NCBI GenBank assembly: GCA_037379555.1
Contig: JARRJK010000006.1
Coordinates: forward strand, 21,769 to 85,768
Direction of reading: 5' to 3'
Length of the DNA stretch: 64,000 nucleotides
Origin: Anaerolineales bacterium
GTDB lineage: Bacteria > Chloroflexota > Anaerolineae > Anaerolineales > E44-bin32
Shown here: positions 9,748 through 26,268 of the stretch, piece by piece
Layout of the letters: the number at the start of each line of letters is the position of its first letter
Position numbering within the stretch: position 1 is the first letter of the stretch
Notes under the pieces: generated by a model
Told to the model about the DNA's origin: nothing
The model's database searches: none
Seen by the model: only the letters and a program-made list of their open reading frames with translations
Made by a program: the position numbers and the translations under genes

Positions 9748-10023
9748 TCGAACCTCCTATCAAAGCGATGCTACTACATCAGTGTTGAGCATACCGCCCC
9801 GCTCTCAGCGGGAGGTCTCAACCGCACATCGATTCTTGCTGAATTCTCACAGCCGTCCGGCCGCATCACGAGCTGCCAGATTGCCGAGATGGCATATTTG
9901 AGCCTTGTCCTGAAGTGAATCGCAGCCTATGAAAGACCGCCGGAGATGCTTCAGCAGGCCTATGCCGCTTCCGTCTTGAAATCCGATCGGCACCGCTGTA
10001 CTCGCGCTTTTCCGGGCGCCTGT

Positions 10024-11589
10024 TTATGCCGATTCCGGATCGGTGGATTCCATTAGTTTTTCAATCAGCTCCTGTTTGAGCTGCCATAGCGCTTCGGTCA
10101 GCGACACGTGATAGATATGCGGGTTCATGATGCGCCGGACTCCTGGATCAAGCCGTTCGATGTCCGCTACCCGCCGCTCGCGCATCTGCTCGATCGATGG
10201 CAATTCATAGATGAGTTTTCCATCCTCGAGCACCGGCACTAGGAGCGCTTCGATCTCTGAGATTTCGGACTGTTCGAGGACGCGCTGGGTGGCATACTCC
10301 ATTGGGTGATGCATGGTGAGCGTCTGCATGGAGCGGGGATCTTCCTGGCGCAAACTGAGCAGATCCGCATCGGCATTGCCGCGCTGGTTGTACACACGCC
10401 ATACGGACTTATAGCCGGGATTGATGATCTTATCGAGTGATTCGGAGATCTTGATCGCCGGTGCCCAGGTGTTATCCCGGCAGATAGCGACCAGTTTGTA
10501 TACACCGTCGAGGGCTGATTGCCCGCGTGAGGTGATCAGCCGTGTGCCCACGCCGTACACCAGCCGGCGGATGAGGGCTTCCGGTTCGACGTCATAGAGC
10601 GGCGCTTCCTCTTCGATCTGGCTGATGATCTGCCACAGGACGAGTTCGTCGATCTGGTTGGAAAGCACGATGCGGACTTCGTCAAAGCCGGCTTTGTCGA
10701 GCTGTTTGGCGGCCTGGATGCTCAGGTATGCGAGATCGCCGGAGTCGAGGCGGATTCCGATGGGCTCGTGGCCTTTGCGACGCAGCTCCTCGAACACCCG
10801 GATTGCGTTGGGGAGGCCGCTCTCCAGCGTATCAACCGTGTCCACGAGCAGCAGGCAATCATCGGGGTAGACGTCGGCATAAGCCCGGAATGCATCCAAC
10901 TCACTCCCTCCCAGGGCGATGAAAGCCTGAACCATGCTGTGAGCGTGGGTGCCCTTAGGAGGGAGACCAAGCACATGCGAAATGCCCACATTCGAGCTGA
11001 ATTCGGCGCCGCCGATGAGGGCAGCCCGGGCGCCGGCGTTCGCGCCTTTGTCCTGTCCCCGGCGAAGGCCGAACTCAAGCAGCAGCTGGCCGCGCCCGGC
11101 GCGGTGGATGCGGGCGGCTTTCGTGGCGACCAGCGACTGGTAGTTGAGATGGTTCAGCAGCGGTGTCTCGAGGATCTGCGCCATGGCAAGCGGGCCTTCC
11201 ACCACGGTCAGCGGCACGTTCGGATGGACTACACGCCCTTCCGGGATCGCCTGCAGGCTGATCTCATCGAAGCTGCCGTTCTGCGCCAGCCACGCGAGAA
11301 AATCATCCTCGAGCAGCTGTTCGCCAGCCCCGGTTCGCTGAGCCCGCAGGTAGTCGAGATCCTGCTCGCGAAAACGGGCTTCAGCCATCCAATCCAACAG
11401 CCATTCCAGGCCGGCATTGACGCAGTAGCCGGCTTTGTGCATGCCATACGCAGGATAGCTTCTGAAGAAGTGCTCAAATAGCGCACGGGTCTCGTGCATG
11501 CCCATGCGGAAATACAGCTGGGCCATCGTGAGCTGGTACTCATCGGTGAAGAGAATTCCTTCGGCTGTGGCGCGTTCTCCGGGCTTCAT
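10024..11589 (-). CDS. pncB: Nicotinate phosphoribosyltransferase
   Basis: N-terminal [15 protein letters not shown], central FGLRRGQ and [11 protein letters not shown], and SGDLAYLS motifs typical of NAPRTase. Confidence 0.85.
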
Positions 11590-11793
11590 ATGGCGCTTCT
11601 CCGCCTCTCATGTTTGTTGCCGCGGGATTACACCAGATCAGGTTGGACCTTCCGAATCGAAACAAGCATACCATGCGAGGTTAATTTCATCGTACAGAAA
11701 GGGAGAAGAGAGAATTCCGAAAGAACCCACCGGCTCAGGTTAGAAGTCGACAACATGGGCGGACTATGCTCTGGAGGGATTCTCAGATAGAGG

Positions 11794-12327
11794 TTGAACT
11801 ACCGGAGGCAGGAAATGGACAGTATGGATAAAACGACAGAAACGACATATACATTCACCGCCCGCAGTTCGCAGGACCCGGCCCGAGTGGCGACATTTAC
11901 ACTGCTTGATGGCCGTGTCTCGGTCGATCTCGGCGTGCCGTTTGAACAGCTCGAGACACTGCTGGAGGAGGAAGAGCCCGGCCAGGAGCAGGAGCGCAAG
12001 CCCTGGATGCGGCCGCTGCTGGTCTCGCTCGCGCAACGCAAGCTGCGCCCATTCCGTCTGGCAGACGTTGAAGCACACACGAAGGGCGATCGGTTGAAGG
12101 TGCGCGCCTGGACACGAGTGGCCGGGCTGCGCCTGGCACCGATCGATTTTTCCTTTGAAGCCGTCGACAATCCTTCTGCCGCTCACGATTTCGTGCGTGA
12201 GCTTCACCACCGTCAGCACGAGAAGCGAACCGCTTCCGCTAGCGGGGGATTGTTCGATTACTGGATTGGCTGGGCAGCTGCTTTTCTGGGAGTGCTTCTC
12301 TTCTTCCGCCGATGGCGGAGAGCATAA
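11794..12327 (+). CDS. Hypothetical protein with a C-terminal transmembrane anchor
   Basis: ORF with no recognisable domain; C-terminal hydrophobic helix (YWIGWAAAFLGVLLFF). Start uncertain (Met codons at 11794, 11815, 11824). Confidence 0.4.
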   Translation: MNYRRQEMDSMDKTTETTYTFTARSSQDPARVATFTLLDGRVSVDLGVPFEQLETLLEEEEPGQEQERKPWMRPLLVSLAQRKLRPFRLADVEAHTKGDRLKVRAWTRVAGLRLAPIDFSFEAVDNPSAAHDFVRELHHRQHEKRTASASGGLFDYWIGWAAAFLGVLLFFRRWRRA

Positions 12328-12380
12328 CTCTAAGCCCAATCGCGTCGCCACGACTTCGACGGTACGAAGGGAAGGACGGT

Positions 12381-13580
12381 ATGAAAGAGGTCAAATATCT
12401 CCTGGTTGGGGGCGGAATGACGGCCGCCGCGGCGGCCAACGCGATCCGCAAAGCTGACCCGCAGGGATCGATCATGATGATCAGCGCAGAGGCTGAGCCG
12501 CCCTACGCTCGACCGCCGCTGAGCAAGGATCTGTGGCGTGAGGGCGAGGTCGATTCGATCTGGCAGGAGCTGCCTGGTGACGGTTTCGAGCTCCTGCTTC
12601 AGCGCTGGGCGGTCGGCCTCGATCCCGGGCAGCACCTCGTGCGCGATGACCACGGCGACGAATACGGCTACACCAGGCTGCTCCTGGCGACAGGCGGCCG
12701 GCCGCGCCAGCTCAAGGACGCCGAGGGCGTGAACTTCTTCCGCACCCTACAGGATTACAGGCGCCTGCGGGCGCAGGCTGAAGAGCTGGAGCGTTTCGCC
12801 GTCATCGGTGGCGGCTTCATCGGTTCGGAGCTTGCCGCAGCCCTTGCGATGCAGGGCAAGCAAGTGGTGCAGGTCTTTCCCGAACCACACATCGGGGCGT
12901 TGATGTTTCCGGATGACCTGGCGCAGGATCTCGAGCGGATATACGCCGAGCGCGGCATCGAGATCCGGGCCGGGGAGCTTGTCTCAGGCGTCGAGCGCTC
13001 CGGAGACGAGTTGACGGTGCATACCGACCGGGATGATTACAGGGTCCAGGCGGCAGTCGGCGGGGTGGGCATCCTGCCAAATGTGGATCTCGCCCGCTCA
13101 GGCGGCCTGAGGGTCCGGGAGGGGATCGTCGTAGATGACCATCTCCGGACATCTGAGAAAGATATCTATGCCGCCGGAGATGTAGCGGAATTCTTCCAGC
13201 CCGATCTGGATACCTACCGCGTCGTGGAGCATGAGGATAACGCGCTCACGATGGGCCGCCAGGCGGGCCGTGCGATGGCGGGCGAAGAAGTCGCCTACGA
13301 TCACATGCCCTATTTCTATTCAGACCTTTTCGACCAGGGCTATGAGGCTGTGGGTGAGATATCACGGGATCACGAAATGGTCAGCGTCTGGCAAGAACCT
13401 TTCCGCAAAGGAATCGTGTACTACCTCTCGGAAGGGCAGGTGCGGGGGGTCCTGCTCTGGAATGTGTGGGAGCGCCGTGAACAGGCCCGCGCGTTGATCG
13501 CGCGCACAGAAGCGGTCACGCGGGAAGAACTCGAGAACGTACCGTTGGATGAACTGATCCAGTTGGAGAAAGCAGCTTGA
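12381..13580 (+). CDS. FAD-dependent pyridine-nucleotide-disulfide oxidoreductase (AIF/ferredoxin-reductase-like)
   Basis: FAD Rossmann YLLVGGGMTAAAAA, NAD Rossmann FAVIGGGFIGSELAA, and YAAGDVAEF. ATG at 12381 preceded by gaaggacgg; the longer ORF start at 12312 overlaps the previous gene. Confidence 0.8.
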   Translation: MKEVKYLLVGGGMTAAAAANAIRKADPQGSIMMISAEAEPPYARPPLSKDLWREGEVDSIWQELPGDGFELLLQRWAVGLDPGQHLVRDDHGDEYGYTRLLLATGGRPRQLKDAEGVNFFRTLQDYRRLRAQAEELERFAVIGGGFIGSELAAALAMQGKQVVQVFPEPHIGALMFPDDLAQDLERIYAERGIEIRAGELVSGVERSGDELTVHTDRDDYRVQAAVGGVGILPNVDLARSGGLRVREGIVVDDHLRTSEKDIYAAGDVAEFFQPDLDTYRVVEHEDNALTMGRQAGRAMAGEEVAYDHMPYFYSDLFDQGYEAVGEISRDHEMVSVWQEPFRKGIVYYLSEGQVRGVLLWNVWERREQARALIARTEAVTREELENVPLDELIQLEKAA

Positions 13581-13640
13581 TGGCGGGGAGGATCTGATGT
13601 GCCTGGCCGCAAAAGGAGACCGATCTCATCGATGATATCC

Positions 13641-14636
13641 ATGGCAAACCGATTTAAAGAAGAGCAGGGCCTGCTCCGGCTGGATGATTTTTCCGAATTC
13701 GTAAGCCAGGAAACGCTGGATCGCATACGGCGTAAAGCTGCGCCGCTCCAGGAGAAGCACATCACGCACATCAATTCGACCTACTACGGCGGCGGGGTGG
13801 CTGAGCTGCTCTCTTCACTGAGCCTGCTGATGAACAGCGTGGGCATCCGGACGGGATGGAGGGTCATTCAGGGAGCGCCGGACTTCTTCAGCGTCACGAA
13901 GAAGATGCACAACGCCCTGCAGGGCGCGGACATCAACCTTTCAGAACGCAAGAAGGAAATCTACCACCACGTCACGGTCCAGAATGCGGTGCGGAATCAT
14001 CTTGATCACGATGTCGTCTACGTTCATGATCCGCAGCCGCTGGGCATGATTGACTACTACGAGAAGAAAGGCCCCTGGATCTGGCGCTGCCACGTGGATC
14101 TCTCACACCCGGATCCCGAATTATGGAATTTCCTGAAACCGTGGGTCGAGAAGTACGACGCCGTGATCACGTCGCTTCCGGAGTACAAGCTGGATCTCAA
14201 GACGCCGCAGCGCTTCATCATGCCGGCAATCGACCCTACATCGATCAAGAACCGCAAATTGAGCAAGGAGGAGATCGACGAACGCTTCGAATACTACGAC
14301 ATACCGCGCGACCTGCCGCTGGTTGTGCAGATCTCGCGCTTCGACCGCTGGAAAGACCCACGCGGCGTGATTGAAGCATTCAAGCTGGCTTCGAAGCGCA
14401 TCGATGCCAGATTGATCCTGCTCGGCAATGTGGCCACAGATGACCCGGAAGGCGAAAAGGTCTACCAGGAGCTGCTCGAATTCAGCGACGACCGCATCCG
14501 GATCATGAGCCGGGAAGACACGGCGCTCGTTAATGCGCTGCAGTGCGAAGCAGCCGTCGTGCTGTGGCACGGTGAGCCAGATCACCACCGCCGCGCCGCC
14601 GCACGAGCTCGGCCTCGGCGACAAGCCCCTGTTTGA
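13641..14636 (+). pseudogene. TreT-like (trehalose synthase family, GT4) glycosyltransferase lacking the C-terminal catalytic segment
   Basis: The N-terminal about 300 aa look like the TreT family (HINSTYYGGGVAELL...WRCHVDLS...VVQISRFDRWKDP...LLGNVATDDPEG...ALVNALQ). After ...AAVVL the frame runs into Arg/Pro-rich nonsense and stops. The GT4 EX7E region (EGFGL..EA) is absent. A different frame at 14570-14670 reads ...HELGLGDKPLFETIYRLKGSAS*, like a displaced native C-terminus. Confidence 0.6.
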
Positions 14637-14685
14637 GACGATCTACCGCTTGAAAGGTAGCGCAAGTTAATTGGGAGGCACGACC

Positions 14686-15051
14686 ATGGCATTACCAGAC
14701 CTGCCGATCGAATACCACAGCGAAGCACGCGGGGTCCCGGAGACGTTGGAGACAGAAGCCCGACGGCACCTGCGGGCTCTGAGCGAAGGACATAAGGATA
14801 TGACGGGAGCCTCCGTGACTATCTCGCGGCCGGAACACGGCGAGACTCCGCATCTGTATCAAGCGCGTGTCATCGTATACATGCGGCCTGAACACGTCAC
14901 AGCATCCGAGAAACACGAAGACCCCGAAATTGCTCTCAAGGGCGCGCTGGGAGCCGTTGAACGACAGATTCGTGAACGTCGCGCCAAACTTAAAGAGAAA
15001 TGGAAGCGGCCTGATCTTTCAGACCCTGCCAGACGACAATTCCAAGAATAG
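14686..15051 (+). CDS. hpf: Ribosome hibernation factor-like protein (HPF/RaiA, S30AE family, short form)
   Basis: gggagg RBS 8 nt before the ATG at 14686. The pattern ...ASVTISRPEHGETPHLYQARVIVYMRPEHVTASEKHEDPEIALKGALGAVERQIRERRAKLKEK fits the beta-alpha-beta-beta-beta-alpha HPF/RaiA family consensus as I remember it. Confidence 0.6.
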   Translation: MALPDLPIEYHSEARGVPETLETEARRHLRALSEGHKDMTGASVTISRPEHGETPHLYQARVIVYMRPEHVTASEKHEDPEIALKGALGAVERQIRERRAKLKEKWKRPDLSDPARRQFQE

Positions 15052-15062
15052 GAGAATTCACC

Positions 15063-16085
15063 ATGGCGAACATCGCAATCAACGGAATGGGACGGATCGG
15101 GCGGGCGGCGCTCAAACAGATCCAGGATCTGCCGGACCTTGAGCTTGTGGCTGTCAATGACCTGATCGACATCGAAAACATCGCTTATCTGCTGAAATAC
15201 GACACGGTCTACGGCCGCATGCCGCAGGCGGTCAGCGTGCAGGATGGCGAGTTGAAGGTGGGTGATCACACCATCCGCTTCCTGCAGGAGCGGGATCCGG
15301 CCAATTTGCCCTGGGGTGAATTGGGGATCGATATCGTGCTTGAATGCACTGGCGTATTTCGCAAGTCCAAAGACTTGCAGAAACACCTGCATGCCGGAGC
15401 GCGGTCTGTCATCCTCTCCGCGCCCGCGAAGGACGATGAGGTGATGACCATCGTGTACGGGGTTAATCAGAGCGAGGTGAAAGAAGGGCATATCGTTTCC
15501 TGCGCAAGCTGCACGACCAACTGCATCACTCCGGTGGTGGAAGTGATCGACCGCCGGATCGGGATTCAGAAAGCGCTGATGACCACCATCCACGCGTACA
15601 CAGCTTCGCAAGGCATCGTCGATGGTCCGAGCAGCAAGTGGCGACGCGGACGTGCGGGTGCGGCCAATCTCGTCCCCACGACGACCGGTGCCGCCCTGGC
15701 GACGACCAAGGCGCTGCCGCAGCTCGAAGGCCGCTTCGACGGCGTTGCGGTGCGCGCACCCGTGCCGGCCGGTTCGGTGGCCGACATGACCTTTCTCGTC
15801 AAGCGGGCGACGACCATCGATGAAGTGAATTCAATCCTGCGCGAGGAAGCCGGTACCGACAGGTATCGAGGGATACTTGGTACTACCGATGATTCGATCG
15901 TTTCGAGCGATATCCTCGGTGATCCTCACGCCTCCATCGTCGATCTGCAGATGACTCAGGTCGTCGATCAAGACTTGGTGAAGATCATGAGCTGGTATGA
16001 CAATGAATGGGGGTACACACGACAGATGCTGCGCGAGGCGGAAAACGTGGCGCAAAACCTCCCGGCGAAAGCGGGGAAGGATTGA
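15063..16085 (+). CDS. gap: Type I glyceraldehyde-3-phosphate dehydrogenase
   Basis: INGMGRIGR NAD-binding N-terminus, catalytic SCASCTTNC, and WYDNEWGY near the C-terminus. Confidence 0.92.
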   Translation: MANIAINGMGRIGRAALKQIQDLPDLELVAVNDLIDIENIAYLLKYDTVYGRMPQAVSVQDGELKVGDHTIRFLQERDPANLPWGELGIDIVLECTGVFRKSKDLQKHLHAGARSVILSAPAKDDEVMTIVYGVNQSEVKEGHIVSCASCTTNCITPVVEVIDRRIGIQKALMTTIHAYTASQGIVDGPSSKWRRGRAGAANLVPTTTGAALATTKALPQLEGRFDGVAVRAPVPAGSVADMTFLVKRATTIDEVNSILREEAGTDRYRGILGTTDDSIVSSDILGDPHASIVDLQMTQVVDQDLVKIMSWYDNEWGYTRQMLREAENVAQNLPAKAGKD

Positions 16086-16089
16086 GGGC

Positions 16090-16335
16090 ATGGCACTGTA
16101 TCAGGTGGAGACGAAATTGTCCGAAGACGAGGCGCTCGAGCGCGCCCGCGAGTTCTTCGGAGAGGATGGACTGGGATTGCACTTGAAGGAGCAACAGGAC
16201 TGCTGTCTGGAGTTCACGGGCGGAGGAGGTCACGTATCGGTCATTGCTGTTAACGGCGAGGGCATAAGGCTTGAGATCGAGACACGCGAGTGGGACCGCC
16301 AGGTCGGACAGTTCATGGAGGAAGTTGGGGGATGA
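16090..16335 (+). CDS. Small hypothetical protein (81 aa)
   Basis: ATG at 16090, 5 nt after the gap stop. The longer ORF from 15997 would overlap gap. No recognisable domain. Confidence 0.4.
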   Translation: MALYQVETKLSEDEALERAREFFGEDGLGLHLKEQQDCCLEFTGGGGHVSVIAVNGEGIRLEIETREWDRQVGQFMEEVGG

Positions 16336-16386
16336 AGTGTCGCCGCCGCAGCTCGATGACTGAAGAAGCTTGCGGAGCGCTGCCCG

Positions 16387-17190
16387 GTGCCTGAACTTCC
16401 TGACGTCGAGGTGTTCAGACGCTATGTCGACGCGACCGCACTGCACAAGACGATACATGATGTCGATATCCAGGCCGAAAGGATTCTGGAGGGCAGCTCG
16501 AGCCGCTCGTTCACCCGCGCCTTGAAGGGCAAGGCATTTGAGTCGAGCCGGCGCCATGGCAAATACCTCTGCCTGGAGTTGACGAACGGCCGCTGGCTGG
16601 TGCTGCACTTCGGCATGACAGGAAGCCTGAAATACTTTCTGCACTCCGAGGATGAGCCGGATTACACCTACGCGCTGTTCACGTTCAGCAATGACTACCA
16701 CCTGGCCTTCCTCAACCCGCGCAAACTCGGTACGTTGGCGATCTATGACAGCGTTGCGGCGCTGATCGAGGATAAGGATCTCGGACCGGATCCGCTTGAA
16801 GTGGGGTTTACTTTCGAGGACTTCAAACATGTGCTGCAGGGCCGGCGCGGCATGCTGAAGTCCACCCTGATGAATCAGTCGATCCTCGCCGGTATTGGAA
16901 ATGTGTATTCGGATGAGATCCTCTTCCAACTCGGTTGGTATCCGCGCGGCAAGGTCGATCGGCTGGATGAGGAGGGGCTGCATGCTTTCTACCGCACGAT
17001 GCGGCACGTTTTGCGCGAGGCGGCTGAGCGCGAGGCTGATCCAGCACGGTTTCCGGATTCCTGGCTCATCCCCCATCGCAGACCCGGCGCAAGCTGCCCT
17101 CGGTGCAGGGGCGAGGTTCAGAAGATCAAGGTCGTTGGACGGTCCGGCTATTTTTGTCCCGCTTGCCAGAAGAAGTTAGGTTCGACGTGA
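16387..17190 (+). CDS. mutM: Formamidopyrimidine-DNA glycosylase / Nei family (Fpg)
   Basis: Catalytic N-terminus (M)PELPDVE, H2TH region (MNQSILAGIGNVYSDEILF) and C-terminal zinc finger CPRCRGEV...YFCPACQ. GTG start. Confidence 0.85.
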   Translation: MPELPDVEVFRRYVDATALHKTIHDVDIQAERILEGSSSRSFTRALKGKAFESSRRHGKYLCLELTNGRWLVLHFGMTGSLKYFLHSEDEPDYTYALFTFSNDYHLAFLNPRKLGTLAIYDSVAALIEDKDLGPDPLEVGFTFEDFKHVLQGRRGMLKSTLMNQSILAGIGNVYSDEILFQLGWYPRGKVDRLDEEGLHAFYRTMRHVLREAAEREADPARFPDSWLIPHRRPGASCPRCRGEVQKIKVVGRSGYFCPACQKKLGST

Positions 17191-17202
17191 CCAAAGGAAA
17201 GC

Positions 17203-17808
17203 ATGGGAGATGAAAGCGTGAGCAAGAAGGATTCACTGAAAGAGTACGAAAGCAAGCGAGATTTCCGAAAGACCCCTGAACCTAGCGGTGAAGGGGGTAA
17301 AGCATCCGATAAGCCGGTCTTTGTGATCCAGAAGCACGATGCCAGGTCGCTGCACTATGACTTCCGGCTGGAGGTCGACGGCGTGCTGAAATCCTGGGCA
17401 GTTCCGAAGGGCCCGTCGACAGACCCGAGTCAGAAGCGGCTGGCGGTCCCGACCGAGGATCACCCGCTGGATTACGCCTCGTTTGAAGGAGTGATCCCCG
17501 AGGGTGAATACGGGGCGGGAACCGTCATGGTGTGGGATCATGGTCCCTACCGCAACTTGCGAGCGGAGAAGAAAGACGATGGGTTATCAATGGAAGATGC
17601 GATCGATGATGGAAAGGTGGAGGTCTGGTTGGATGGTGAGAAGTTGCGTGGGGGATATGCTCTAATCCGCACCGGCGGCGATGAACGCTGGCTGATGATC
17701 AAGATGGATGATGACGAGGCCGACGCACGCCGCAACCCAACCAGCACTGAACCGGATTCGGTCATCAGCGGCCGGTCGCTGGAAGAGATCGCAGCCGGCG
17801 GATCATGA
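17203..17808 (+). CDS. Stand-alone LigD 3'-phosphoesterase (PE) domain protein
   Basis: KRDFRKTPEP...FVIQKHDARSLHYDFRLE...LKSWAVPKGPS...EDHPLDY motifs of the LigD PE domain. Confidence 0.85.
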   Translation: MGDESVSKKDSLKEYESKRDFRKTPEPSGEGGKASDKPVFVIQKHDARSLHYDFRLEVDGVLKSWAVPKGPSTDPSQKRLAVPTEDHPLDYASFEGVIPEGEYGAGTVMVWDHGPYRNLRAEKKDDGLSMEDAIDDGKVEVWLDGEKLRGGYALIRTGGDERWLMIKMDDDEADARRNPTSTEPDSVISGRSLEEIAAGGS

Positions 17809-18812
17809 GTCCAGCTTCACTGATCGACCGCTATCCAGGATCCGGATTGAAGGAGCGTGAACTGCCGCAGTGGGTGGAGCCAATGCTGGCGACGCTCACC
17901 GATAAGCACTTCTCGCGAGAGGGGTGGATCTTCGAGCGCAAGTTCGATGGTGAACGTTGTCTGGCTTTCCGGAATGGAAAGCAGATCAACCTGTTCACGC
18001 GCAATCACAAACCGCTCAACGATACATATCCTGAGCTGGCAGAGGCCTTACAAAAACAGGAGCCGCAGCGATTTATCGTGGATGGCGAAGTCGTGGCTTT
18101 CGAGGGCAACCGGACCAGCTTCGCGAGGTTGCAGGAACGCATGCAGATCAAGGATCCGCAGAAAGCCCACGCTTCAAAGATCGCAGTCTACTATTACATC
18201 TTTGACATCCTCTATCTCGATTCATACGATACGCGTGGTCTGGACCAGCGTGATCGCAAACAGCTGCTGAAGGAAAGCCTGCAGTTTGAGGATCCGCTGC
18301 GCTACACGGCTCATCGCAACACCGACGGCCAGCAGTATTTCAAGCAGGCATGTAAGCGCGGCTGGGAGGGCGTGATCGCGAAAGAGGCTGACGCTTCCTA
18401 CGCCCATGGTCGCTCCACCCACTGGCTTAAATTCAAGTGCGTGAAGGAACAGGAGTTCGTCATCGGCGGTTTCACCGACCCGCAGGGCTCGCGCATCGGG
18501 TTTGGCGCCCTGTTGGTGGGGTACTACGAAGGTTCGGCGCTCCGCTACGCCGGCAAGGTTGGGACCGGTTACGACGATCAAACGCTCAGACAGCTCCATA
18601 ACAAGCTGAGCGGCCTCGAGCGCGAGAATCCGCCTTTCAAGACAGAGGGCGATCTTCCCGCTACAGGAGTCCACTGGACGCAGCCGGAACTCGTCGTCCA
18701 GGTTGGCTTTGAAGAGTGGACCGACGATCTGCGGCTGAGGCAGCCGCGCTACCTTGGTTTGCGTGATGATAAATCACCGCAGACTGTGCACAGGGAGAAG
18801 GCAGATTCATGA
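17805..18812 (+). CDS. ligD: ATP-dependent DNA ligase (LigD ligase domain, stand-alone)
   Basis: Adenylation motif I region WIFERKFDGERCLA, EGVIAK motif and an OB-domain C-terminus. The start overlaps the PE stop (ATGA at 17805-17808). Confidence 0.9.
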   Translation: MSPASLIDRYPGSGLKERELPQWVEPMLATLTDKHFSREGWIFERKFDGERCLAFRNGKQINLFTRNHKPLNDTYPELAEALQKQEPQRFIVDGEVVAFEGNRTSFARLQERMQIKDPQKAHASKIAVYYYIFDILYLDSYDTRGLDQRDRKQLLKESLQFEDPLRYTAHRNTDGQQYFKQACKRGWEGVIAKEADASYAHGRSTHWLKFKCVKEQEFVIGGFTDPQGSRIGFGALLVGYYEGSALRYAGKVGTGYDDQTLRQLHNKLSGLERENPPFKTEGDLPATGVHWTQPELVVQVGFEEWTDDLRLRQPRYLGLRDDKSPQTVHREKADS

Positions 18813-19732
18813 GCGATGAGCTCGAAATCGATGACCACACGGTGGAAATATCTCACCGCGAGAAGCTTTTCTTCCCGGATGAGGGGTTGACGAAGGGCGA
18901 TCTGGTCGATTACTACCGGCGCATCGCGGAGGTCATGCTGCCGCATCTCAAAGGACGCCCGATCAGCATGCAGCGCTTTCCCGATGGAATCACGGGCGAG
19001 GGCTTCTATCAGAAAGAAGCGCCGGACTATTTTCCGGACTGGATTCAGCAGGTGGATGTGCTGGTTGAAGGGGAGGGCGAAAAACAACCTCAGGTCATCG
19101 TCGATGGGGCCGCGACACTCGTCTACCTGGCAAACCAGGCTTGCATCACGCCGCACACCTGGCTGAGCAGGGCTGGCCGGCTTGACCAGCCGGATAAGCT
19201 CATCTTTGATCTCGACCCTCCGGGTGACGATTTCAATGTCGTTCGGGAGGCGGCATATGCTTTACACAATATGCTGGAGGAGATCAGACTGGTTTCCTAT
19301 GTCATGACGACAGGCTCGCGGGGCCTGCACGTCGTCCTGCCGTTAAAATCCGGCGCGGGGTTCGACAACGTCCGTGACTTCGCACATGAGATCGCCGCTG
19401 CGCTGGCTGCGAGGGAACCCGAGAAGTGGACAGTCGAGGTGAGAAAAGCGAAGCGCGATGGCCGGCTGTTCCTGGATACCATGCGCAATGCGTATGCTCA
19501 AACTTCTGTCCCGCCGTACGCCGTCCGAGCCCTTCCCGCTGCTCCGGTCGCCACTCCGATCGAATGGGATGAACTGAGCGATCACAAACTGAACTCGCAG
19601 ACCTATTCAATGATGAATATCTTCCGCCGCCTGGGCCAGAAATCAGATCCGTGGATCGACATCTACGATAAAGCCGTCTCCCTGGATCATGCCTGGGAGC
19701 GATTCGCCACCTGGTCTGAAAATCGAGGCTAA
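18809..19732 (+). CDS. Stand-alone LigD primase-polymerase (Pol/AEP) domain protein
   Basis: SHREKLFFPDEGLTKGDL..YY, QRFPDGI, LIFDLDP and TGSRGLHVVLPL motifs of NHEJ polymerase domains. The start overlaps the ligase stop (ATGA at 18809-18812). Confidence 0.85.
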   Translation: MSDELEIDDHTVEISHREKLFFPDEGLTKGDLVDYYRRIAEVMLPHLKGRPISMQRFPDGITGEGFYQKEAPDYFPDWIQQVDVLVEGEGEKQPQVIVDGAATLVYLANQACITPHTWLSRAGRLDQPDKLIFDLDPPGDDFNVVREAAYALHNMLEEIRLVSYVMTTGSRGLHVVLPLKSGAGFDNVRDFAHEIAAALAAREPEKWTVEVRKAKRDGRLFLDTMRNAYAQTSVPPYAVRALPAAPVATPIEWDELSDHKLNSQTYSMMNIFRRLGQKSDPWIDIYDKAVSLDHAWERFATWSENRG

Positions 19733-19763
19733 GGGGTAGCGGCGGGATCGAGAGAGAATCCAT

Positions 19764-19798
19764 GCCTCCCCGGCCATGGCCGGGGAGGTCTTTGTTTC
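19764..19798 (+). terminator. Rho-independent terminator after the LigD genes
   Basis: cctccccggcc-at-ggccggggagg stem followed by tctttgtttcc. Confidence 0.65.
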
Positions 19799-19818
19799 CT
19801 GGGAACGAATGAGGAGAT

Positions 19819-20466
19819 TTACGTTTTTTTCGGGGGCAGTTGATTCACAAGATCGGAGACAACAGCTAATTTAACCCGGTCCTCGTCGATCTCGCTCACC
19901 CAGCTGATCGGAACATTTTTCTTCTCTTTCAAGAGCAGGCCCTCTGAGATCACGAACTGGGTGATCCTGTGGGATTCGGGGTCGCTGAAGATCTGTTCGA
20001 TGTCGCCGACCTTCTTGCCTTTCACATCGTAAACGGGCGCATTCTCCTTGATGGCCACATCACCCGGATCGATGTGCCGTTCTTTCTCTTCAATTAGTGG
20101 CTGCGGGCTGGCTACCGGGATGGCGGGCGATGCGGAGGCGTACGGGCTGGGGACGACGGGTATCAGTGGGACCGGCTTGAGGCTAGGGTAGTCGTCCCGA
20201 TCGACATCACCGATATATAGATAGTTGGTCTCCTCGAACTCCGGCAGTTCCTCCAGCATATCCTCATCGAGCCGCAGCGTCACGCGATCCTCGTCTGCCA
20301 TCTCGATCAGGTTGACCGGCACGACCCGGTCTTCCTTGAACAGCAGCCCTTTTTCGATGATGATATCGGTCACAGATTTCGTGACCGGATCGATCACCAC
20401 CCGCTCGATGTCGCCGATGTGTTCACCTCTACTGCTGATCACTTTCGTACCTGGTTTGAATTTCAT
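19819..20466 (-). CDS. Tandem PRC-barrel domain protein
   Basis: Two copies of a PRC-barrel-like module (GTKVISSRGEHIGDIERVVIDPVTKSVTDIIIEKG... and APVYDVKGKKVGDIEQIFSDPESHRITQFVISEG...) separated by a Pro-rich linker. Confidence 0.7.
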   Translation of the reverse strand: MKFKPGTKVISSRGEHIGDIERVVIDPVTKSVTDIIIEKGLLFKEDRVVPVNLIEMADEDRVTLRLDEDMLEELPEFEETNYLYIGDVDRDDYPSLKPVPLIPVVPSPYASASPAIPVASPQPLIEEKERHIDPGDVAIKENAPVYDVKGKKVGDIEQIFSDPESHRITQFVISEGLLLKEKKNVPISWVSEIDEDRVKLAVVSDLVNQLPPKKT

Positions 20467-20537
20467 CTTTAACCATCCTTTCTGTTGGCTGATGTGCTGT
20501 TTCGAGCGCTTGCACCAACCATCGATTTCAGCTCGGA

Positions 20538-21713
20538 TTATTCCTGCGGTTCGGCATAGCGCAGCAGCGCCGCGGCGAGATCGTCACCCGGCATGTCTTC
20601 GGCACTGATGCTGAACACCTGACCATCAGCCTGCAGTGTGTAGATTGCTGCCAGGTTCATCAGGTCTTCAGCCGTGGGGCTCCGGCCGTTCCCATCTGTC
20701 AATTTGATTCCGCTCTCGGAATAGTTGCCCCATAGGTGCTGGTTCCGGCACAGGAGAAGCGTGTCAACCTGTCCGTAATGGGCGGCTTTCAGCAAACGAT
20801 AAATCGAGTTTTCGGTCCGTCCTTCGATCGACCGGGCGTTGAGATACCGCTGCACAGCCTGTGCGGGCCGGCCATCACGTGCATTCGACACGGTCTCGCG
20901 CGCCTGTTCGGCAAGCTGACCCGAGTCGAGCAGATCGGGATTTCCGCCGATACGGCTGATGACCTGGACACCCTCGGCTAGCAGATCGTTGAATTCGCTG
21001 GTGATTTCATCCACTCCTGCCAGGATCAAAACATTCCCGCTGCCCAGGAGGTGCCGTTCGACCGGTGCAGCGACTTGCTGCAAATAGCGCCGCAGATTGG
21101 ATAAATCATCGTTTGATCCGGCGCCGTGGCCGTGGAACATCACAGGTTTTGAGGCCCGTTCCGCCCGGTCACTGGTGTGCAACTGGAGCTGTCGTTCCGG
21201 ATCGTCGAAAGCCAGCGCTTCTTCCATATTGGACGGAGCACCATTGAGTTCGATGGGTGTGACTTGCTCAGCATCTACTGTGAAGAAGCGGTTGCCCCCC
21301 TTGCTGATCGCAAGGACGAAGAACGACTGTTCCCGCTGCAGATCGAACAGCAGGGGACGAACGTACGGGTGCCGGCTTATGAAGCAGGCTGGTTCGGGGC
21401 TGTGCCGCAGGCGGATATAAAGTGGTTCCTCCGGCGTGATGTAGATCGCGAGGCCCGGCGAAGCCTGCTGCCAGAATTCACGCTCGTCGAGCAGGGCTTC
21501 GGCTGGTTTACGCAGTTCTTCGGCTTCGGGACCTCGCAGGCCGTACTCTGCCAGGTGTTCTTCAGCCTCGGTCAGCAAATTCTTGAGCTGGATGCGATCA
21601 CCTTTCCACTCGCCACCCACCCGGCGCGTTGGCAGGATAAACGTCAGGCACCATTCACCTTCGATCCCAATGAGCTGATGGATAACTTCACCTGAAAGCT
21701 TGTACTCGTCCAT
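20538..21713 (-). CDS. Bacterial eRF1/Pelota-like (baeRF-type) protein
   Basis: The N-terminus CLTFILPTRRVGGEWKGDRIQLKNLL and the C-terminal eRF1-domain-3-like part (KAAHYGQVDTLLL...DLMNLAAIYTLQADGQVFSISAEDMPG..LAAALLRY) match baeRF3/7-type proteins as I remember them. No GGQ tripeptide anywhere in the 391 aa. Confidence 0.6.
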   Translation of the reverse strand: MDEYKLSGEVIHQLIGIEGEWCLTFILPTRRVGGEWKGDRIQLKNLLTEAEEHLAEYGLRGPEAEELRKPAEALLDEREFWQQASPGLAIYITPEEPLYIRLRHSPEPACFISRHPYVRPLLFDLQREQSFFVLAISKGGNRFFTVDAEQVTPIELNGAPSNMEEALAFDDPERQLQLHTSDRAERASKPVMFHGHGAGSNDDLSNLRRYLQQVAAPVERHLLGSGNVLILAGVDEITSEFNDLLAEGVQVISRIGGNPDLLDSGQLAEQARETVSNARDGRPAQAVQRYLNARSIEGRTENSIYRLLKAAHYGQVDTLLLCRNQHLWGNYSESGIKLTDGNGRSPTAEDLMNLAAIYTLQADGQVFSISAEDMPGDDLAAALLRYAEPQE

Positions 21714-21818
21714 ATCGAGACCTCCTTACCACACAACCCGCAGCTCTCCCTGAGCGCCGCGTTCTGCCGGAAAGAACCGCCAGGGTACCTCCCGGCAGAA
21801 CAAAGGCTGGGGACGCTG

Positions 21819-22238
21819 TTAGATTCCGCGCAGCACCCGGGCCAGCTCACGGGCATGCTCAGATTCATCGGCCGCCATTTCTTCGAGCTTTAGCTTCAGC
21901 TCGACCTCGCCCAGTGCTTCTGCGGCCTGAGCGTGCTGCTTGTAATTCACAACATCCTGCAGCTCGAGCTTGAGATCCTGTTCGAGCATGTCCTTAAGAT
22001 TCTCGGTCGGCTTGAACTCCTTCGGTTTGAGCGTCGGCTCACCGCCTAGGTCGACGATAACGTCACTCAGGAATGTGGCGTGACCGAGTTCGTCCGGGAT
22101 CTCGCCGCGCAGCATCTCGCGCATTGAAGGAGCCTCGGGCCCCGACGCTTTGCTGGCCTGGTAGTTGTAGCGGATGATCGTCCCCAATTCGGCGGACAGA
22201 TCCTGGTTGAGCATATTGATCAGGTCTTTCTTCGACAT
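21819..22238 (-). CDS. Ferritin-like diiron four-helix-bundle protein (bacterioferritin-related)
   Basis: Four-helix pattern with paired metal ligands: SAELGT, PDELGH (ExxH), LKLELQD, ADESEH (ExxH). Confidence 0.75.
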   Translation of the reverse strand: MSKKDLINMLNQDLSAELGTIIRYNYQASKASGPEAPSMREMLRGEIPDELGHATFLSDVIVDLGGEPTLKPKEFKPTENLKDMLEQDLKLELQDVVNYKQHAQAAEALGEVELKLKLEEMAADESEHARELARVLRGI

Positions 22239-22282
22239 GTTTACTCCTTAAATTTGTCTGCTTTAAGCTTGTTTGAAATGTC

Positions 22283-23422
22283 TCAGGCGCTGCGGCCAGC
22301 CTCGAGACGCTTCGAAAACAGCGTCGGGCTGCTCGTCGCGAGCTGATAAATCTCGCTGATGTCACGGCTGGTGATGATTCCCAGGAACTTTCCGTCCTTG
22401 CTTACCGGCAGCGCGTCGTAGCTATTCTTGGAGAGCTTCTGCTGGACCTGGAACAGTTCGTCTGAAGGGCTAATGAGCGGCACTTCGGTCAGCATGATCT
22501 GATCGATCGGTGTATCCACTGGCCGCTTCTTGAGTGCCTGCACCATTGTCTGAAGCGTGAGTAAGCCAACCACCTCACCGTCTTCGCATACGGGGAAGTT
22601 CGCTTGCGAGGAGTGCAGGGTTAGGTCGGCGGCATCCTGCAGCGTTTGATCAGGCGACAACGTGCTTACATTGCGTGAGTAAGCATCTTCCGCCCGCAGA
22701 TTGCGCAGCACGCTGCGCAGGTGAACCATACGGCCTTCCATTCCAGCGCCCATGTAAATAAAGATGGCAATCAGAATCAGCAGCAGGTTCCCGGACATGA
22801 AACCCCACAAGCCCAGCCCCCAGGCTGCAATCTGGCCGACGACGACAGCAATGTCCGTGGCGCGCGTATACTCAAGGCGCGTCGCTAACAGCGCCCGCAG
22901 GACTCGACCGCCGTCCATCGGGAAAGCCGGCAGCAAGTTGAATGCTCCGATGAATATGTTGGTGGCGAATACGTAGAGGAAGATCGATTCAAACGTCAGC
23001 CTGCCGATATTAGACATCAATGCGCTGGTGTTTGGCAGGTTGTTCGGCAGCAGGTTCCTCCCTGCCAGAACGAGCAGTATAGCCAATACCAGGTTCACCG
23101 CCGGACCGGCGATAGAGATTGCCAGCTCCTGGGAGGGCTTTTCCGGGATGTTTTCCATCTGCGATACGCCGCCGATTGGCAGCAGCACGATGCGCTTTAC
23201 CGGGATATCAAATCCGCGCGCTGTGAGCGCGTGGCCGAGCTCGTGCAGCACAACGATGGCGAACAAGATCAGCGTCACGATGACACCGAACGCAGCTCCC
23301 TCCCAGCCCTGGCCGGTGAAAACGCCAAAATAGAAGGCACCCCAGAGCAAGATCAAGGGAAATGTGAAGTGCATGCGGATTTCGATTCCACGGATGCGGA
23401 AGAGTGTGATGGCGTTATTCAT
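22283..23422 (-). CDS. M50 site-2 metalloprotease with a C-terminal CBS pair
   Basis: HELGHAL zinc motif in a TM helix, a second ligand region NLLPAFPMDGGRV, and two CBS modules at the C-terminus. ATG at 23422 has a ggagg RBS; the ORF extends to 23470. Confidence 0.85.
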   Translation of the reverse strand: MNNAITLFRIRGIEIRMHFTFPLILLWGAFYFGVFTGQGWEGAAFGVIVTLILFAIVVLHELGHALTARGFDIPVKRIVLLPIGGVSQMENIPEKPSQELAISIAGPAVNLVLAILLVLAGRNLLPNNLPNTSALMSNIGRLTFESIFLYVFATNIFIGAFNLLPAFPMDGGRVLRALLATRLEYTRATDIAVVVGQIAAWGLGLWGFMSGNLLLILIAIFIYMGAGMEGRMVHLRSVLRNLRAEDAYSRNVSTLSPDQTLQDAADLTLHSSQANFPVCEDGEVVGLLTLQTMVQALKKRPVDTPIDQIMLTEVPLISPSDELFQVQQKLSKNSYDALPVSKDGKFLGIITSRDISEIYQLATSSPTLFSKRLEAGRSA

Positions 23423-23688
23423 AACATACCTCCGAAGCTCTCTGCCTTGCTCTCGATTCCAACGAGGCATGAAGGCTTGCTGAGTTCTAATACCTTATCT
23501 ATCTTGATTTTCACGCGCAGGGATAAAGAAGTGCTTGCATCTTGCGCTTGACTCTTGCGAACTTCTTACGATGCGCTACGGGCGAACCAGTTGGTAAGCT
23601 AAAGGACGGGAGCGCGCTGTTCTCCAGGGCTGCCGCCTGTCTGATATAAATAGGGTAGATCTGCGTCGTGATATCAAGGAGGTCGTGC

Positions 23689-23859
23689 ATGCCGTTGACA
23701 GCCAAAGACAGGCAGCGCAAGCGCAAACAGCGCAGGCAGCGCAAGCTGCGCAAGCTAAAACGCCGCTTCGAGGCGTCTGGGGACGCCCGTGAGCGTCAGA
23801 AGCTTGAGCAGAAGATACGCAACATTCAGCCTGGATGGGAGCCGGGGGGCGAAGGCTGA
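23689..23859 (+). CDS. Small highly basic protein (56 aa, Arg/Lys-rich)
   Basis: aaggagg RBS 6 nt before the ATG at 23689. Sequence MPLTAKDRQRKRKQRRQRKLRKLKRRFEASGDARERQKLEQKIRNIQPGW.... Sits 70 nt upstream of otsA-otsB on the same strand. Confidence 0.45.
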   Translation: MPLTAKDRQRKRKQRRQRKLRKLKRRFEASGDARERQKLEQKIRNIQPGWEPGGEG

Positions 23860-23928
23860 ACGGTGGGTCGTGCTCAGCGGAGCGGTAGGACTATGGGCCG
23901 CCCGCGGGTATGAAAGACGGGAGATAAA

Positions 23929-26157: not shown

Positions 26158-26268
26158 GCTGATTCCCGTTCTCTAACATTTCGCTGATGTTGCTCCAACT
26201 CCAATTTAACGTTTGGGATGTACCTTAATCATAGCAACCATCTCAACGGAAAAAGAGGAGGTGTCGCA

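What the first reader, a model, noticed from the sequence alone, without database searches (positions are those of the whole stretch)
16387..19798. LigD split into three translationally coupled genes (PE, ligase, polymerase) behind fpg, with no Ku gene in 64 kb
Seen in sequence:
- The PE, ATP-ligase and primase-polymerase domains are separate ORFs joined by ATGA overlaps at 17805-17808 and 18809-18812.
- They are preceded by fpg (12-nt gap) and closed by a strong terminator.
- The adjacent convergent gene is a PRC-barrel protein, not Ku.

Established knowledge:
- In most bacteria these domains are fused in one LigD polypeptide and the gene sits next to ku.
- Fully stand-alone PE/Lig/Pol proteins are described for the archaeon Methanocella paludicola.

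Inference: an archaeal-style modular NHEJ apparatus in a bacterium, co-transcribed with a base-excision glycosylase. This could couple oxidised-base removal to end processing. Ku must be encoded elsewhere or be absent.
Basis: partly seen in the sequence, partly recalled or inferred. Interest (0 to 1): 0.55.

Follow-up and report, generated by a model that had tools for sequence, protein, structure and literature searches.

The report
Split LigD-type repair operon with Fpg
A bacterium carries the three enzymatic parts of DNA ligase D as separate, overlapping genes right behind an Fpg-type DNA glycosylase; this split, Ku-unlinked cassette is real, but it is a widespread, already described kind of repair operon, so it is a fairly ordinary new example.

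Summary
An Fpg-like gene (16387-17190) is followed by PE (17203-17808), ligase (17805-18812) and primase-polymerase (18809-19732). There is a 12-nt gap, two ATGA overlaps and a strong terminator. No Ku is detectable in 64 kb.

The arrangement is not an oddity. All 80 loci with the closest ligase relatives have the same split genes and no Ku within 10 kb. They come from Mycobacterium, Bacteroidota, Gemmatimonadota, Chloroflexota, Proteobacteria, Zixibacteria and methanogens. None has a fused protein.

The three proteins form a clade with the Methanocella paludicola stand-alone enzymes (bootstrap 93-100). Fused or Ku-linked LigD and Prim-PolC fall outside it.

Fpg linkage recurs in several gene orders. 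In Mycobacterium it lies by polA/rpsA/coaE, matching the operon Plocinski et al. 2017 used to argue for base excision repair.

Most likely function: a dormancy-phase excision-repair operon. Fpg would leave a 1-nt gap with a 3'-phosphate, PE would remove the phosphate, Pol would fill the gap and Lig would seal it. End joining with a distal Ku is not excluded.

Verdict: new member of a known kind, with modest interest.

The parts
16387..17190 (+). Fpg/Nei-family DNA glycosylase/AP lyase (267 aa, GTG start) of a 'short-loop' Fpg subfamily
   Evidence: Pfam finds Fapy_DNA_glyco, H2TH and zf-FPG. NCBIfam fpg equivalogs score 182-185 bits, below the cut-offs of 203-212. The best solved relative is L. 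lactis Fpg at 113 bits and about 30% identity. Pro2, Glu3, the Lys of RRHGKYL and the CxxC...CxxC zinc finger are kept, and the lesion-capping-loop region has a 9-residue gap.
17191..17202 (+). 12-nt fpg-PE spacer with a Shine-Dalgarno-like AAAGGAAAG; no terminator between the genes
   Evidence: Sequence. The terminator scan finds only weak in-gene hairpins here.
17203..17808 (+). Stand-alone LigD-type 3'-phosphoesterase (PE, 201 aa)
   Evidence: PF13298, E = 2e-45. TIGR02777 scores 217 bits against a cut-off of 144. It scores 220 bits against M. paludicola PE 5DMP. The active-site motifs HDARSLHYDFRLE and EDHPLDY align with the solved PEs.
17805..17808 (+). ATGA overlap: PE stop and Lig start
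   Evidence: The same 4-nt overlap occurs at 31 of 43 PE/Lig junctions in related loci.
17805..18812 (+). Stand-alone LigD-type ATP-dependent DNA ligase (335 aa; adenylation plus OB domains; motif I KFDG)
   Evidence: PF01068 plus PF04679. TIGR02779 scores 288 bits against a cut-off of 228. The LigC equivalog NF006078 scores only 145 against 296. The best solved relative is the M. tuberculosis LigD ligase domain 1VS0 at 153 bits.
18809..18812 (+). ATGA overlap: Lig stop and Pol start
   Evidence: Of 60 Lig/Pol junctions in related loci, 45 overlap by 1 or 4 nt.
18809..19732 (+). Stand-alone LigD-type primase-polymerase (AEP, 307 aa; motifs DLD and SRGLH present; no Prim-PolC Loop 3)
   Evidence: PF21686, E = 2e-91. 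TIGR02778 scores 259 bits against a cut-off of 215. It scores 330 bits and is 54% identical to M. paludicola Pol 5DMU, against 168 bits for Prim-PolC. The protein ends 14 residues after the position aligned to Prim-PolC residue 299; Loop 3 is residues 313-333 (PMC7442782).
19764..19798 (+). Intrinsic terminator closing the operon (11-bp stem, 9 G-C pairs, 4-nt loop, T-rich tail)
   Evidence: sequence.

Best explanation
This is a member of the widespread Methanocella-type split LigD cassette: PE, ligase and primase-polymerase as three translationally coupled genes. Here it is joined in one operon to a short-loop Fpg-family glycosylase and embedded in a dormancy and desiccation gene neighbourhood.

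The most likely job is repair of oxidised bases and 3'-blocked single-strand gaps in non-growing cells, without an AP endonuclease:
1. Fpg removes the damaged base and cuts the abasic site by beta,delta-elimination. This leaves a 1-nt gap with 3'-phosphate and 5'-phosphate ends.
2. PE removes the 3'-phosphate.
3. Pol, anchored on the 5'-phosphate, fills the gap, probably with a ribonucleotide.
4. PE trims any excess ribonucleotides.
5. The ligase seals the nick.

Shown here: the gene identities, the operon-like geometry, the clade membership, the family-wide lack of Ku linkage and the recurrent Fpg linkage. Inferred: co-transcription, the enzymatic hand-offs and independence from Ku. The same three enzymes could also join double-strand breaks if a Ku is encoded elsewhere.
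For: Gene identities and geometry:
-.

Clade membership:
- Window plus cassette loci plus Mpa Pol separate from fused or Ku-linked LigD, Prim-PolC and the Pae and Mtb LigD-POL domains. Bootstrap support is 93 for Pol, 100 for Lig and 100 for PE.

Ku linkage:
- 0 of 80 cassette loci have Ku, over 1.31 Mb of flank. 49 of them have at least 9 kb on both sides.
- 0 of 80 Fpg-centred loci have Ku.
- For comparison, 75% of genomes with fused LigD have Ku within 10 kb (PMC7719229).
- The Ku HMM found all controls and an unannotated fragment.

Fpg linkage recurs in at least four gene orders:
- Upstream: window, L007, L095, L099, L101, L127.
- Downstream of Pol: 25 of 40 Mycobacterium loci, plus L124, L129, L132, L159.
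- Divergent: L004 and L165. Convergent: L115.
- Reciprocally, 11 of 80 relatives of the Fpg-like protein lie within 2 kb of cassette genes, or 7 of 28 with at least 2 kb on both flanks.

Published biochemistry:
- FPG leaves a 3',5'-biphosphorylated gap, binds a LigD-like ligase (LigC1), and BER was reconstituted with FPG, a 3'-phosphatase, Prim-PolC and LigC (PMC5663958).
- Stand-alone PEs remove 3'-phosphates and resect ribonucleotides (PMC3082917).
- Loop-3-less Prim-PolC still fills 1-nt gaps (PMC7442782).
- LigD has been implicated in BER and in Ku-independent roles (PMC4770248).

Context:
- The neighbourhood carries TreT, HPF, a baeRF ribosome-hibernation factor, a ferritin-like protein, OtsA/B and Hsp20. 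This fits use in dormancy.
- Three methanogen loci carry the cassette, although Ku is reported as rare in archaea (PMC8708640).
Against: - The M. paludicola orthologues perform Ku-dependent end joining in vitro (cited in PMC4797286).
- The window Pol is PolD/NHEJ-type and lacks the Loop 3 that defines the dedicated gap-filling Prim-PolC subfamily (PMC7442782).
- Outside Actinomycetota, only 3 of 25 cassette loci have an Fpg gene within 10 kb.
- Most relatives of the Fpg-like protein are not cassette-linked, so the link is facultative.
- Ku could be encoded elsewhere in this genome, which is untestable here.
- Co-transcription, and PE activity on a 1-nt gap, are not shown for this clade.
- The cassette loci were selected by similarity to the window ligase, and the controls are few and plasmid-borne.
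Confidence: 0.55

Rival explanations
1. This is an ordinary archaeo-prokaryotic NHEJ enzyme set (PE/Lig/Pol). [quoted passage not shown] The fpg gene is a neighbour that at most cleans damaged bases near break ends.
For: The closest characterised homologues are the M. paludicola NHEJ Pol and PE, which form a functional NHEJ complex with Ku (PMC4797286, PMC4538821). The Pol lacks Prim-PolC Loop 3 and groups with NHEJ-type polymerases. NCBIfam assigns all three to LigD/NHEJ domain models above their cut-offs. 25% of conventional systems also have Ku more than 10 kb away (PMC7719229).
Against: No Ku lies in the 64-kb window or within 10 kb of any of the 80 related cassettes. That is very unlike the 75% linkage of fused LigD. 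Fpg has been recruited independently and repeatedly. The mycobacteria that carry the cassette already have a canonical Ku-LigD pair (established knowledge; PMC5663958). The cassette also occurs in methanogens, where Ku is reported as rare (PMC8708640).
Confidence: 0.3
2. The fpg-cassette adjacency has no functional meaning. Two repair loci simply ended up next to each other in a stress or dormancy island, and are read through or transcribed separately.
For: Most cassettes outside Actinomycetota have no Fpg nearby (22 of 25), and most relatives of the Fpg-like protein have no cassette nearby (69 of 80). The surrounding genes form a heterogeneous co-directional stress cluster.
Against: The gap is 12 nt, carries a ribosome-binding site and has no terminator. 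Linkage occurs in at least four different gene orders across several phyla. A chance expectation of roughly 1% per 20 kb for a 1-3 copy gene (my estimate) is far below the 11 of 80 and 32 of 80 observed. A physical FPG-ligase interaction is published for the mycobacterial system (PMC5663958).
Confidence: 0.1
3. It is an orthologue of the mycobacterial LigC/Prim-PolC base-excision-repair complex.
For: It has the same operonic association with FPG that was used to argue for LigC-complex BER (PMC5663958). The mycobacterial Lig-Pol-fpg loci of this family lie by polA/rpsA/coaE, as described there.
Against: The LigC equivalog scores 145 bits against a cut-off of 296, while the LigD ligase-domain model passes. 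Pol scores 168 bits against Prim-PolC but 330 against Mpa Pol, and lacks Loop 3. Prim-PolC falls outside the cassette clade. The mycobacterial fpg-linked genes are themselves Mpa/LigD-type.
Confidence: 0.03
4. The split is an artefact: a single fused ligD broken by two sequencing frameshifts.
For: The gene order PE-Lig-Pol equals the domain order of Pseudomonas-type fused LigD.
Against: Two independent assemblies reproduce both junctions exactly. Each gene starts with ATG in a classic ATGA overlap. 0 of 162 related loci have two domains in one reading frame, while the same pipeline finds the fusions in all the control plasmid loci annotated as fused LigD. Overlapping junctions are the family norm.
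Confidence: 0.01

Closest known systems
Methanocella paludicola stand-alone NHEJ proteins (Mpa PE, Lig, Pol; PDB 5DMP, 5DMU)
   Same: Three separate, co-operonic genes. The window Pol is 54% identical (330 bits) and the PE scores 220 bits. Both fall in the same clade in the trees. The active-site motifs are the same.
   Different: The host is a bacterium: the window encodes sigma-70, CarD, HPF and S1. An Fpg-family gene is fused to the operon. A Ku partner is known for M. paludicola but not for this organism.
Mycobacterium avium-complex Lig/Prim-Pol/FPG operon described by Plocinski et al. 2017 (PMC5663958)
   Same: The Lig and Pol belong to the same protein family (58-60% identity for Lig). 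An Fpg-like gene of the same short-loop subfamily is adjacent. There is no Ku nearby.
   Different: In mycobacteria fpg follows Pol, and PE is present in only 15 of 40 loci. Here fpg leads the operon and PE is present. That paper called the genes LigC and Prim-PolC, but by sequence they are LigD/Methanocella-type.
Canonical bacterial Ku-LigD (fused PE-Lig-Pol or Pol-PE-Lig)
   Same: The same three catalytic domains, and the same domain order as Pseudomonas LigD. All pass the LigD domain models.
   Different: The polypeptides are separate. The Lig domain is only 30-42% identical and Pol 30-40% identical to the fused or Ku-linked examples. No Ku is adjacent, against 75% adjacency for fused LigD (PMC7719229).
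M. smegmatis LigC1 / Prim-PolC excision-repair complex
   Same: A stand-alone ligase plus AEP polymerase. The proposed function is the same: filling and sealing short gaps after FPG, with ribonucleotides, in stationary phase.
   Different: The LigC equivalog score is not met and Loop 3 is absent. A PE is present, whereas the LigC pathway relies on EndoIV, XthA or ExoIII for 3'-end cleaning (PMC5663958, PMC7442782).
Mammalian NEIL-PNKP-Pol beta-Lig III AP-endonuclease-independent BER (analogy only; from my own knowledge)
   Same: A Fpg/Nei-family glycosylase with beta,delta-lyase activity is followed by a 3'-phosphatase, a gap-filling polymerase and an ATP-dependent ligase.
   Different: The 3'-phosphatase and polymerase are unrelated proteins, and the pathway is not an operon. 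The analogy is inferred, not tested.

Membership tests
Methanocella-type split LigD cassette (stand-alone PE, Lig, Pol) | PE, ligase and primase-polymerase encoded as separate, adjacent, co-directional genes | tested here: met
   Three ORFs in three frames with ATGA overlaps. The same is seen in two independent contigs. 0 of 162 related loci are fused, and the controls are detected as fused.
Methanocella-type split LigD cassette (stand-alone PE, Lig, Pol) | Each protein passes the LigD domain model and keeps its catalytic motifs | tested here: met
   TIGR02777 (217 against 144), TIGR02779 (288 against 228) and TIGR02778 (259 against 215) all pass. The motifs are PE H..H.D.R and H...Y, Lig KFDG, and Pol DLD and SRGLH.
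Methanocella-type split LigD cassette (stand-alone PE, Lig, Pol) | Closer to the M. paludicola proteins and other split cassettes than to fused LigD | tested here: met
   Bit scores. NJ bootstrap support is 93 (Pol), 100 (Lig) and 100 (PE). Caveat: the sample was selected by similarity to the window.
Prokaryotic Ku-dependent NHEJ system | A Ku gene in the same genome, usually within 10 kb | tested here: not met
   No Ku in the 64-kb window by tblastn, phmmer or HMM. The rest of the genome is not available, so the genome-wide question cannot be tested with these tools.
Prokaryotic Ku-dependent NHEJ system | Ku-stimulated joining of double-strand breaks | not testable with these tools
   This needs biochemistry or genetics. 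It has been shown only for the M. paludicola orthologues (PMC4797286).
Canonical fused LigD | [quoted passage not shown] | tested here: not met
   Stop codons and frame changes separate the domains.
LigC / Prim-PolC excision-repair complex | Ligase matches the LigC equivalog | tested here: not met
   NF006078 scores 145 bits against a cut-off of 296.
LigC / Prim-PolC excision-repair complex | Polymerase carries the C-terminal Loop 3 (Prim-PolC residues 313-333) | tested here: not met
   The window Pol aligns to Prim-PolC residues 7-299 and ends 14 residues later (PMC7442782).
LigC / Prim-PolC excision-repair complex | Operonic or physical association with FPG and other BER enzymes | tested here: met
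   fpg lies 12 nt upstream with no terminator between, and the linkage recurs in relatives. Physical interaction was not tested.
Fpg/MutM formamidopyrimidine-DNA glycosylase | N-terminal Pro-Glu, H2TH domain, catalytic Lys and C-terminal zinc finger | tested here: met
   Pfam finds the three domains. The alignment to L. lactis Fpg shows the residues.
Fpg/MutM formamidopyrimidine-DNA glycosylase | Scores above the curated equivalog cut-off for housekeeping Fpg | tested here: not met
   NF002211 scores 185 against 212, and TIGR00577 scores 182 against 203.
Fpg/MutM formamidopyrimidine-DNA glycosylase | Full-length lesion-capping loop between H2TH and the zinc finger | tested here: not met
   There is a 9-residue gap against L. 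lactis Fpg. The GN[IV]Y-to-CxxC spacing is 62, against 71-72 in L. lactis and E. coli Fpg. The consequence for substrate range is untested.

The most novel reading that the evidence does not exclude
The whole Methanocella-type split PE-Lig-Pol clade is primarily a Ku-independent repair machine for single-strand gaps, not an NHEJ apparatus. With the short-loop Fpg it forms a self-sufficient four-gene base-excision pathway that needs no AP endonuclease, because LigD-PE acts as the 3'-phosphatase. That would make it a prokaryotic counterpart of NEIL-PNKP-Pol beta-Lig III, used in dormant cells. If so, many 'NHEJ' annotations in bacteria and archaea that lack Ku, or have it unlinked, would be misassigned.
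Probability: 0.3. Interest if true: 0.55.

Novelty: new member of a known kind. Interest (0 to 1): 0.3.

Why it matters
On its own the locus is another example of a described operon type. The comparative picture is worth keeping for three reasons:
- This clade of split LigD genes is never found next to Ku, across at least ten bacterial lineages and three methanogens.
- It has repeatedly recruited an Fpg-family glycosylase.
- It supplies its own 3'-phosphatase (PE), which is the one activity the published FPG/Prim-PolC/LigC reconstitution had to borrow from EndoIV or XthA.

This extends a mycobacterial observation to many phyla. It also gives a compact four-protein system for testing whether LigD-type enzymes do base excision repair without Ku in dormant cells.

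Tried and rejected
- **Frameshift artefact:** rejected.
- **LigC/Prim-PolC orthology:** rejected on the equivalog score, Loop 3 and the tree.
- **Ku in the window or in related loci:** searched with a single-sequence probe and with an HMM, filters off. Nothing was found, while the controls were.
- **Source genome:** the exact ligase occurs only on two short JGI metagenome contigs. The best species-representative genome match is 62% identical. So the organism and its Ku status stay unknown.
- **Other recurrent neighbours of the cassette:** only mycobacterial synteny (polA, rpsA, coaE, an FHA-ABC transporter, a Ser/Thr kinase) and a P-type ATPase in 5 non-actinobacterial loci. No further repair gene recurs.
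- **Small ORF 16090-16335:** no Pfam match, and no homologue in any related locus.
- **Short Fpg loop as a marker of cassette linkage:** rejected, because the whole subfamily has it whether linked or not.
- **Technical failures:** a first tree script timed out, and searches failed on input format.
- **Not run:** structure prediction and the very large protein searches, because sequence-level assignments were unambiguous.

Full report
**1. Observation.**
The region contains four co-directional ORFs:
- 16387-17190 (267 aa, GTG start)
- 17203-17808 (201 aa)
- 17805-18812 (335 aa)
- 18809-19732 (307 aa)

The first stop and the second start are 12 nt apart, and the spacer carries AAAGGAAAG. The next two junctions are ATGA overlaps at 17805-17808 and 18809-18812, so the three downstream genes lie in three different frames. 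A hairpin with an 11-bp stem (9 G-C pairs) and a T-rich tail lies at 19764-19798.

Domain assignments are unambiguous:
- Gene 1 has the Fpg N-terminal, H2TH and zinc-finger domains.
- Gene 2 is LigD_N/PE (E = 2e-45).
- Gene 3 has the ATP-ligase adenylation and OB domains. The LigD ligase-domain model scores 288 bits against a cut-off of 228.
- Gene 4 is LigD_Prim-Pol (E = 2e-91).

The convergent neighbour 19819-20466(-) is a double PRC-barrel protein.

I searched all six frames of the 64 kb for Ku. First I used an M. tuberculosis Ku sequence recalled from memory and validated against Pfam Ku (E = 5e-53). Then I used an HMM built from that sequence plus 11 annotated plasmid Ku proteins. Nothing scored better than noise, while every control Ku scored 360-434 bits and an unannotated Ku fragment in a Legionella plasmid was picked up.

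**2. Not an artefact.**
Two metagenome contigs from different JGI samples are 99.95% and 100% identical to the window and show the same two ATGA junctions. In 162 related loci, no reading-frame fragment carries more than one of the four domains. The same pipeline recovers the fusions in all the control plasmid loci annotated as fused LigD. Start/stop overlaps are the norm in the family: 31 of 43 PE/Lig junctions overlap by 4 nt, and 45 of 60 Lig/Pol junctions overlap by 1 or 4 nt.

**3. What family it is.**
Against solved structures:
- The Pol is far closer to the stand-alone M. paludicola NHEJ polymerase 5DMU (330 bits, 54% identity) than to M. smegmatis Prim-PolC (168), P. aeruginosa LigD-POL (148) or M. 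tuberculosis LigD-POL (139).
- The PE is closest to M. paludicola PE 5DMP (220 bits).
- The ligase is closest to the M. tuberculosis LigD ligase domain (153 bits); no M. paludicola ligase matched among solved chains.

A scan of one genome per species returned 80 loci whose ligase is 53-62% identical to the window ligase. They come from Mycobacterium (40), other Actinomycetota, Gemmatimonadota, Bacteroidota/Rhodothermales/Ignavibacteria, Chloroflexota, Zixibacteria, Acidobacteriota, Alpha-, Gamma- and Deltaproteobacteria/Myxococcota, and three methanogenic archaea. In all 80 the ligase is a separate gene, and 38 show the full PE-Lig-Pol order.

In neighbour-joining trees, the window plus these loci (plus Mpa Pol) separate from 11 fused or Ku-linked plasmid LigD sequences, Prim-PolC and the Pae and Mtb references. 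Bootstrap support is 93 (Pol), 100 (Lig) and 100 (PE). Ligase domains of fused or Ku-linked LigD are only 30-42% identical to the window ligase. One caveat is that the cassette loci were chosen as the best 80 of 428 matches, so intermediate sequences may exist.

**4. Ku.**
None of the 80 cassette loci has Ku. They cover 1.31 Mb of flanking DNA, and 49 have at least 9 kb on both sides. None of the 80 Fpg-centred metagenome loci has Ku either. Sharda et al. found Ku within 10 kb of fused LigD in 75% of genomes (PMC7719229). Even allowing for non-independence of related loci, the contrast is very large. Reviews state that Ku is rare in archaea and that only M. paludicola has the complete set (PMC8708640), yet three methanogen loci carry the cassette. 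Whether the source genome of this window has Ku elsewhere cannot be tested. The genome is not in the collections at species level.

**5. Fpg linkage.**
An Fpg-like gene lies within 10 kb of the cassette in:
- 26 of 40 Mycobacterium loci (25 directly after Pol)
- 3 of 12 other Actinomycetota loci
- 3 of 25 other bacterial loci

L007, a Bacteroidota MAG, has exactly the window's fpg-PE-Lig-Pol order.

Reciprocally, I took the 80 metagenome loci holding the closest relatives of the window's Fpg-like protein (40-55% identity). Of these, 11 have cassette genes within 2 kb, or 7 of 28 with at least 2 kb on both flanks. The orders vary: upstream, downstream, divergent and convergent. The two closest relatives (L095, L099) share the window's order. 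The link is therefore recurrent and independently derived, but facultative.

The mycobacterial loci lie beside polA, rpsA and coaE. [quoted passage not shown] By sequence those genes are LigD/Methanocella-type, not LigC/Prim-PolC-type.

**6. The Fpg-like protein.**
It keeps Pro2, Glu3, the catalytic lysine context and the zinc finger. However, it scores below the curated Fpg equivalog cut-offs. It is only about 30% identical to L. lactis Fpg, with a 9-residue gap where that enzyme has its lesion-capping loop. The shortened spacing (61-62 residues against 71-72) is shared by the whole subfamily, whether cassette-linked or not. Its substrate range is therefore uncertain.

**7. Mechanism.**
The published chemistry fits a self-contained pathway:
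- FPG converts a damaged base into a 1-nt gap with 3'- and 5'-phosphates (PMC5663958).
- Stand-alone PEs remove 3'-phosphates and trim 3'-ribonucleotides (PMC3082917).
- LigD-type polymerases anchor on the 5'-phosphate and prefer rNTPs (PMC7442782, PMC5663958).
- The ligase seals the nick.

The published reconstitution used EndoIV, XthA or ExoIII for the 3'-phosphate. Here the operon supplies PE for that step.

The window Pol lacks the Loop 3 that defines the dedicated gap-filling Prim-PolC subfamily. However, Loop-3 truncations still fill 1-nt gaps (PMC7442782), which is the gap size Fpg makes.

The neighbourhood is rich in dormancy and desiccation genes:
- a truncated TreT
- HPF
- a baeRF-type ribosome hibernation factor
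- a ferritin-like protein
- an OtsA/OtsB fusion
- Hsp20

This fits use in non-growing cells. End joining with a distal Ku remains possible, since the M. paludicola orthologues do that in vitro.

**8. Comparison and novelty.**
The literature already states that LigD domains are separate, co-operonic genes in many organisms (PMC4797286, PMC4538821, PMC5663958, PMC7470946). It also records that stand-alone PEs are widespread (PMC3082917), that a Lig/Pol/FPG operon exists in mycobacteria (PMC5663958), and that LigD can act in BER and in Ku-independent roles (PMC4770248). The locus is thus a new member of a known kind.

What I did not find stated in the papers read is the following:
- the family-wide absence of Ku linkage for this clade
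- the cross-phylum recurrence of Fpg linkage
- the role of PE as the built-in 3'-phosphatase after Fpg

These are modest extensions.

**9. Verdict.**
The locus is ordinary in kind, with a useful comparative angle. Interest is 0.3.

Noticed in passing
window 12312-26715: The cassette sits in a cluster of dormancy, desiccation and stress genes. On the + strand, co-directional with gaps of 51 nt or less from 12312 to the terminator at 19790: a pyridine-nucleotide disulfide oxidoreductase, TreT, HPF, GAPDH, a small ORF and then the cassette. Then on the - strand: PRC-barrel, a baeRF-type ribosome hibernation factor, a ferritin-like protein and an M50 peptidase with CBS domains. Then on the + strand: an OtsA-OtsB fusion and Hsp20.
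   Followed up: partly
window 13599-14636: The trehalose synthase TreT ORF has only the N-terminal domain. After '...AAVVL' it runs into non-homologous sequence and stops 34 nt before the HPF gene. No other frame continues it, so the gene looks C-terminally truncated.
   Followed up: partly
window 16090-16335: An 81-aa ORF between GAPDH and fpg, starting 4 nt after the GAPDH stop. It has no Pfam match and no homologue in any of the 160 related loci.
   Followed up: partly
window 16387-17190 and Fpg genes of L003-L174: This Fpg-like subfamily is about 10 residues shorter than L. lactis and E. coli Fpg between the H2TH motif and the zinc finger, which is the lesion-capping loop region. That is true whether or not the gene is linked to the cassette. 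It may not handle 8-oxoG like classical MutM.
   Followed up: partly
window 27906-27980 (-) and 34575-34688 (-): A tRNA-Asn (GTT), and a TPP riboswitch upstream of an ABC transporter operon at 29968-33869(-).
   Followed up: no
L086 (Sphingobium plasmid) 10034-12630; L087 (Dyadobacter plasmid) 4234-12751: Fused LigD genes with no Ku within 10 kb, each immediately followed by exodeoxyribonuclease III (xth). L087 also has two Fpg-family genes 3-5 kb upstream. So links between BER genes and LigD also occur for fused LigD.
   Followed up: no
L088 (Bradyrhizobium plasmid) 3859-13195: A stand-alone LigD-type ligase in a repair island with PolX, a MOSC protein, RNase HII, topoisomerase IB, a 3'-5' exonuclease and Ku.
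   Followed up: no
L084 (Legionella lytica plasmid) 5698-5865: An unannotated Ku-like fragment (51 bits) about 3.5 kb upstream of a fused ligD. It is probably a Ku remnant.
   Followed up: no
L012, L024, L040, L056, L062, L063, L080: In several actinobacterial loci a Pol, PE or Fpg match is split over two or three reading-frame fragments. This suggests frameshifted, decaying copies. Cassette composition in Mycobacterium is variable: Lig only, Lig-fpg, Lig-Pol-fpg or PE-Lig-Pol-fpg.
   Followed up: no
L008, L009, L025, L070, L079: A P-type cation ATPase recurs within 6 kb of the cassette in five non-actinobacterial loci. Its meaning is unknown.
   Followed up: no
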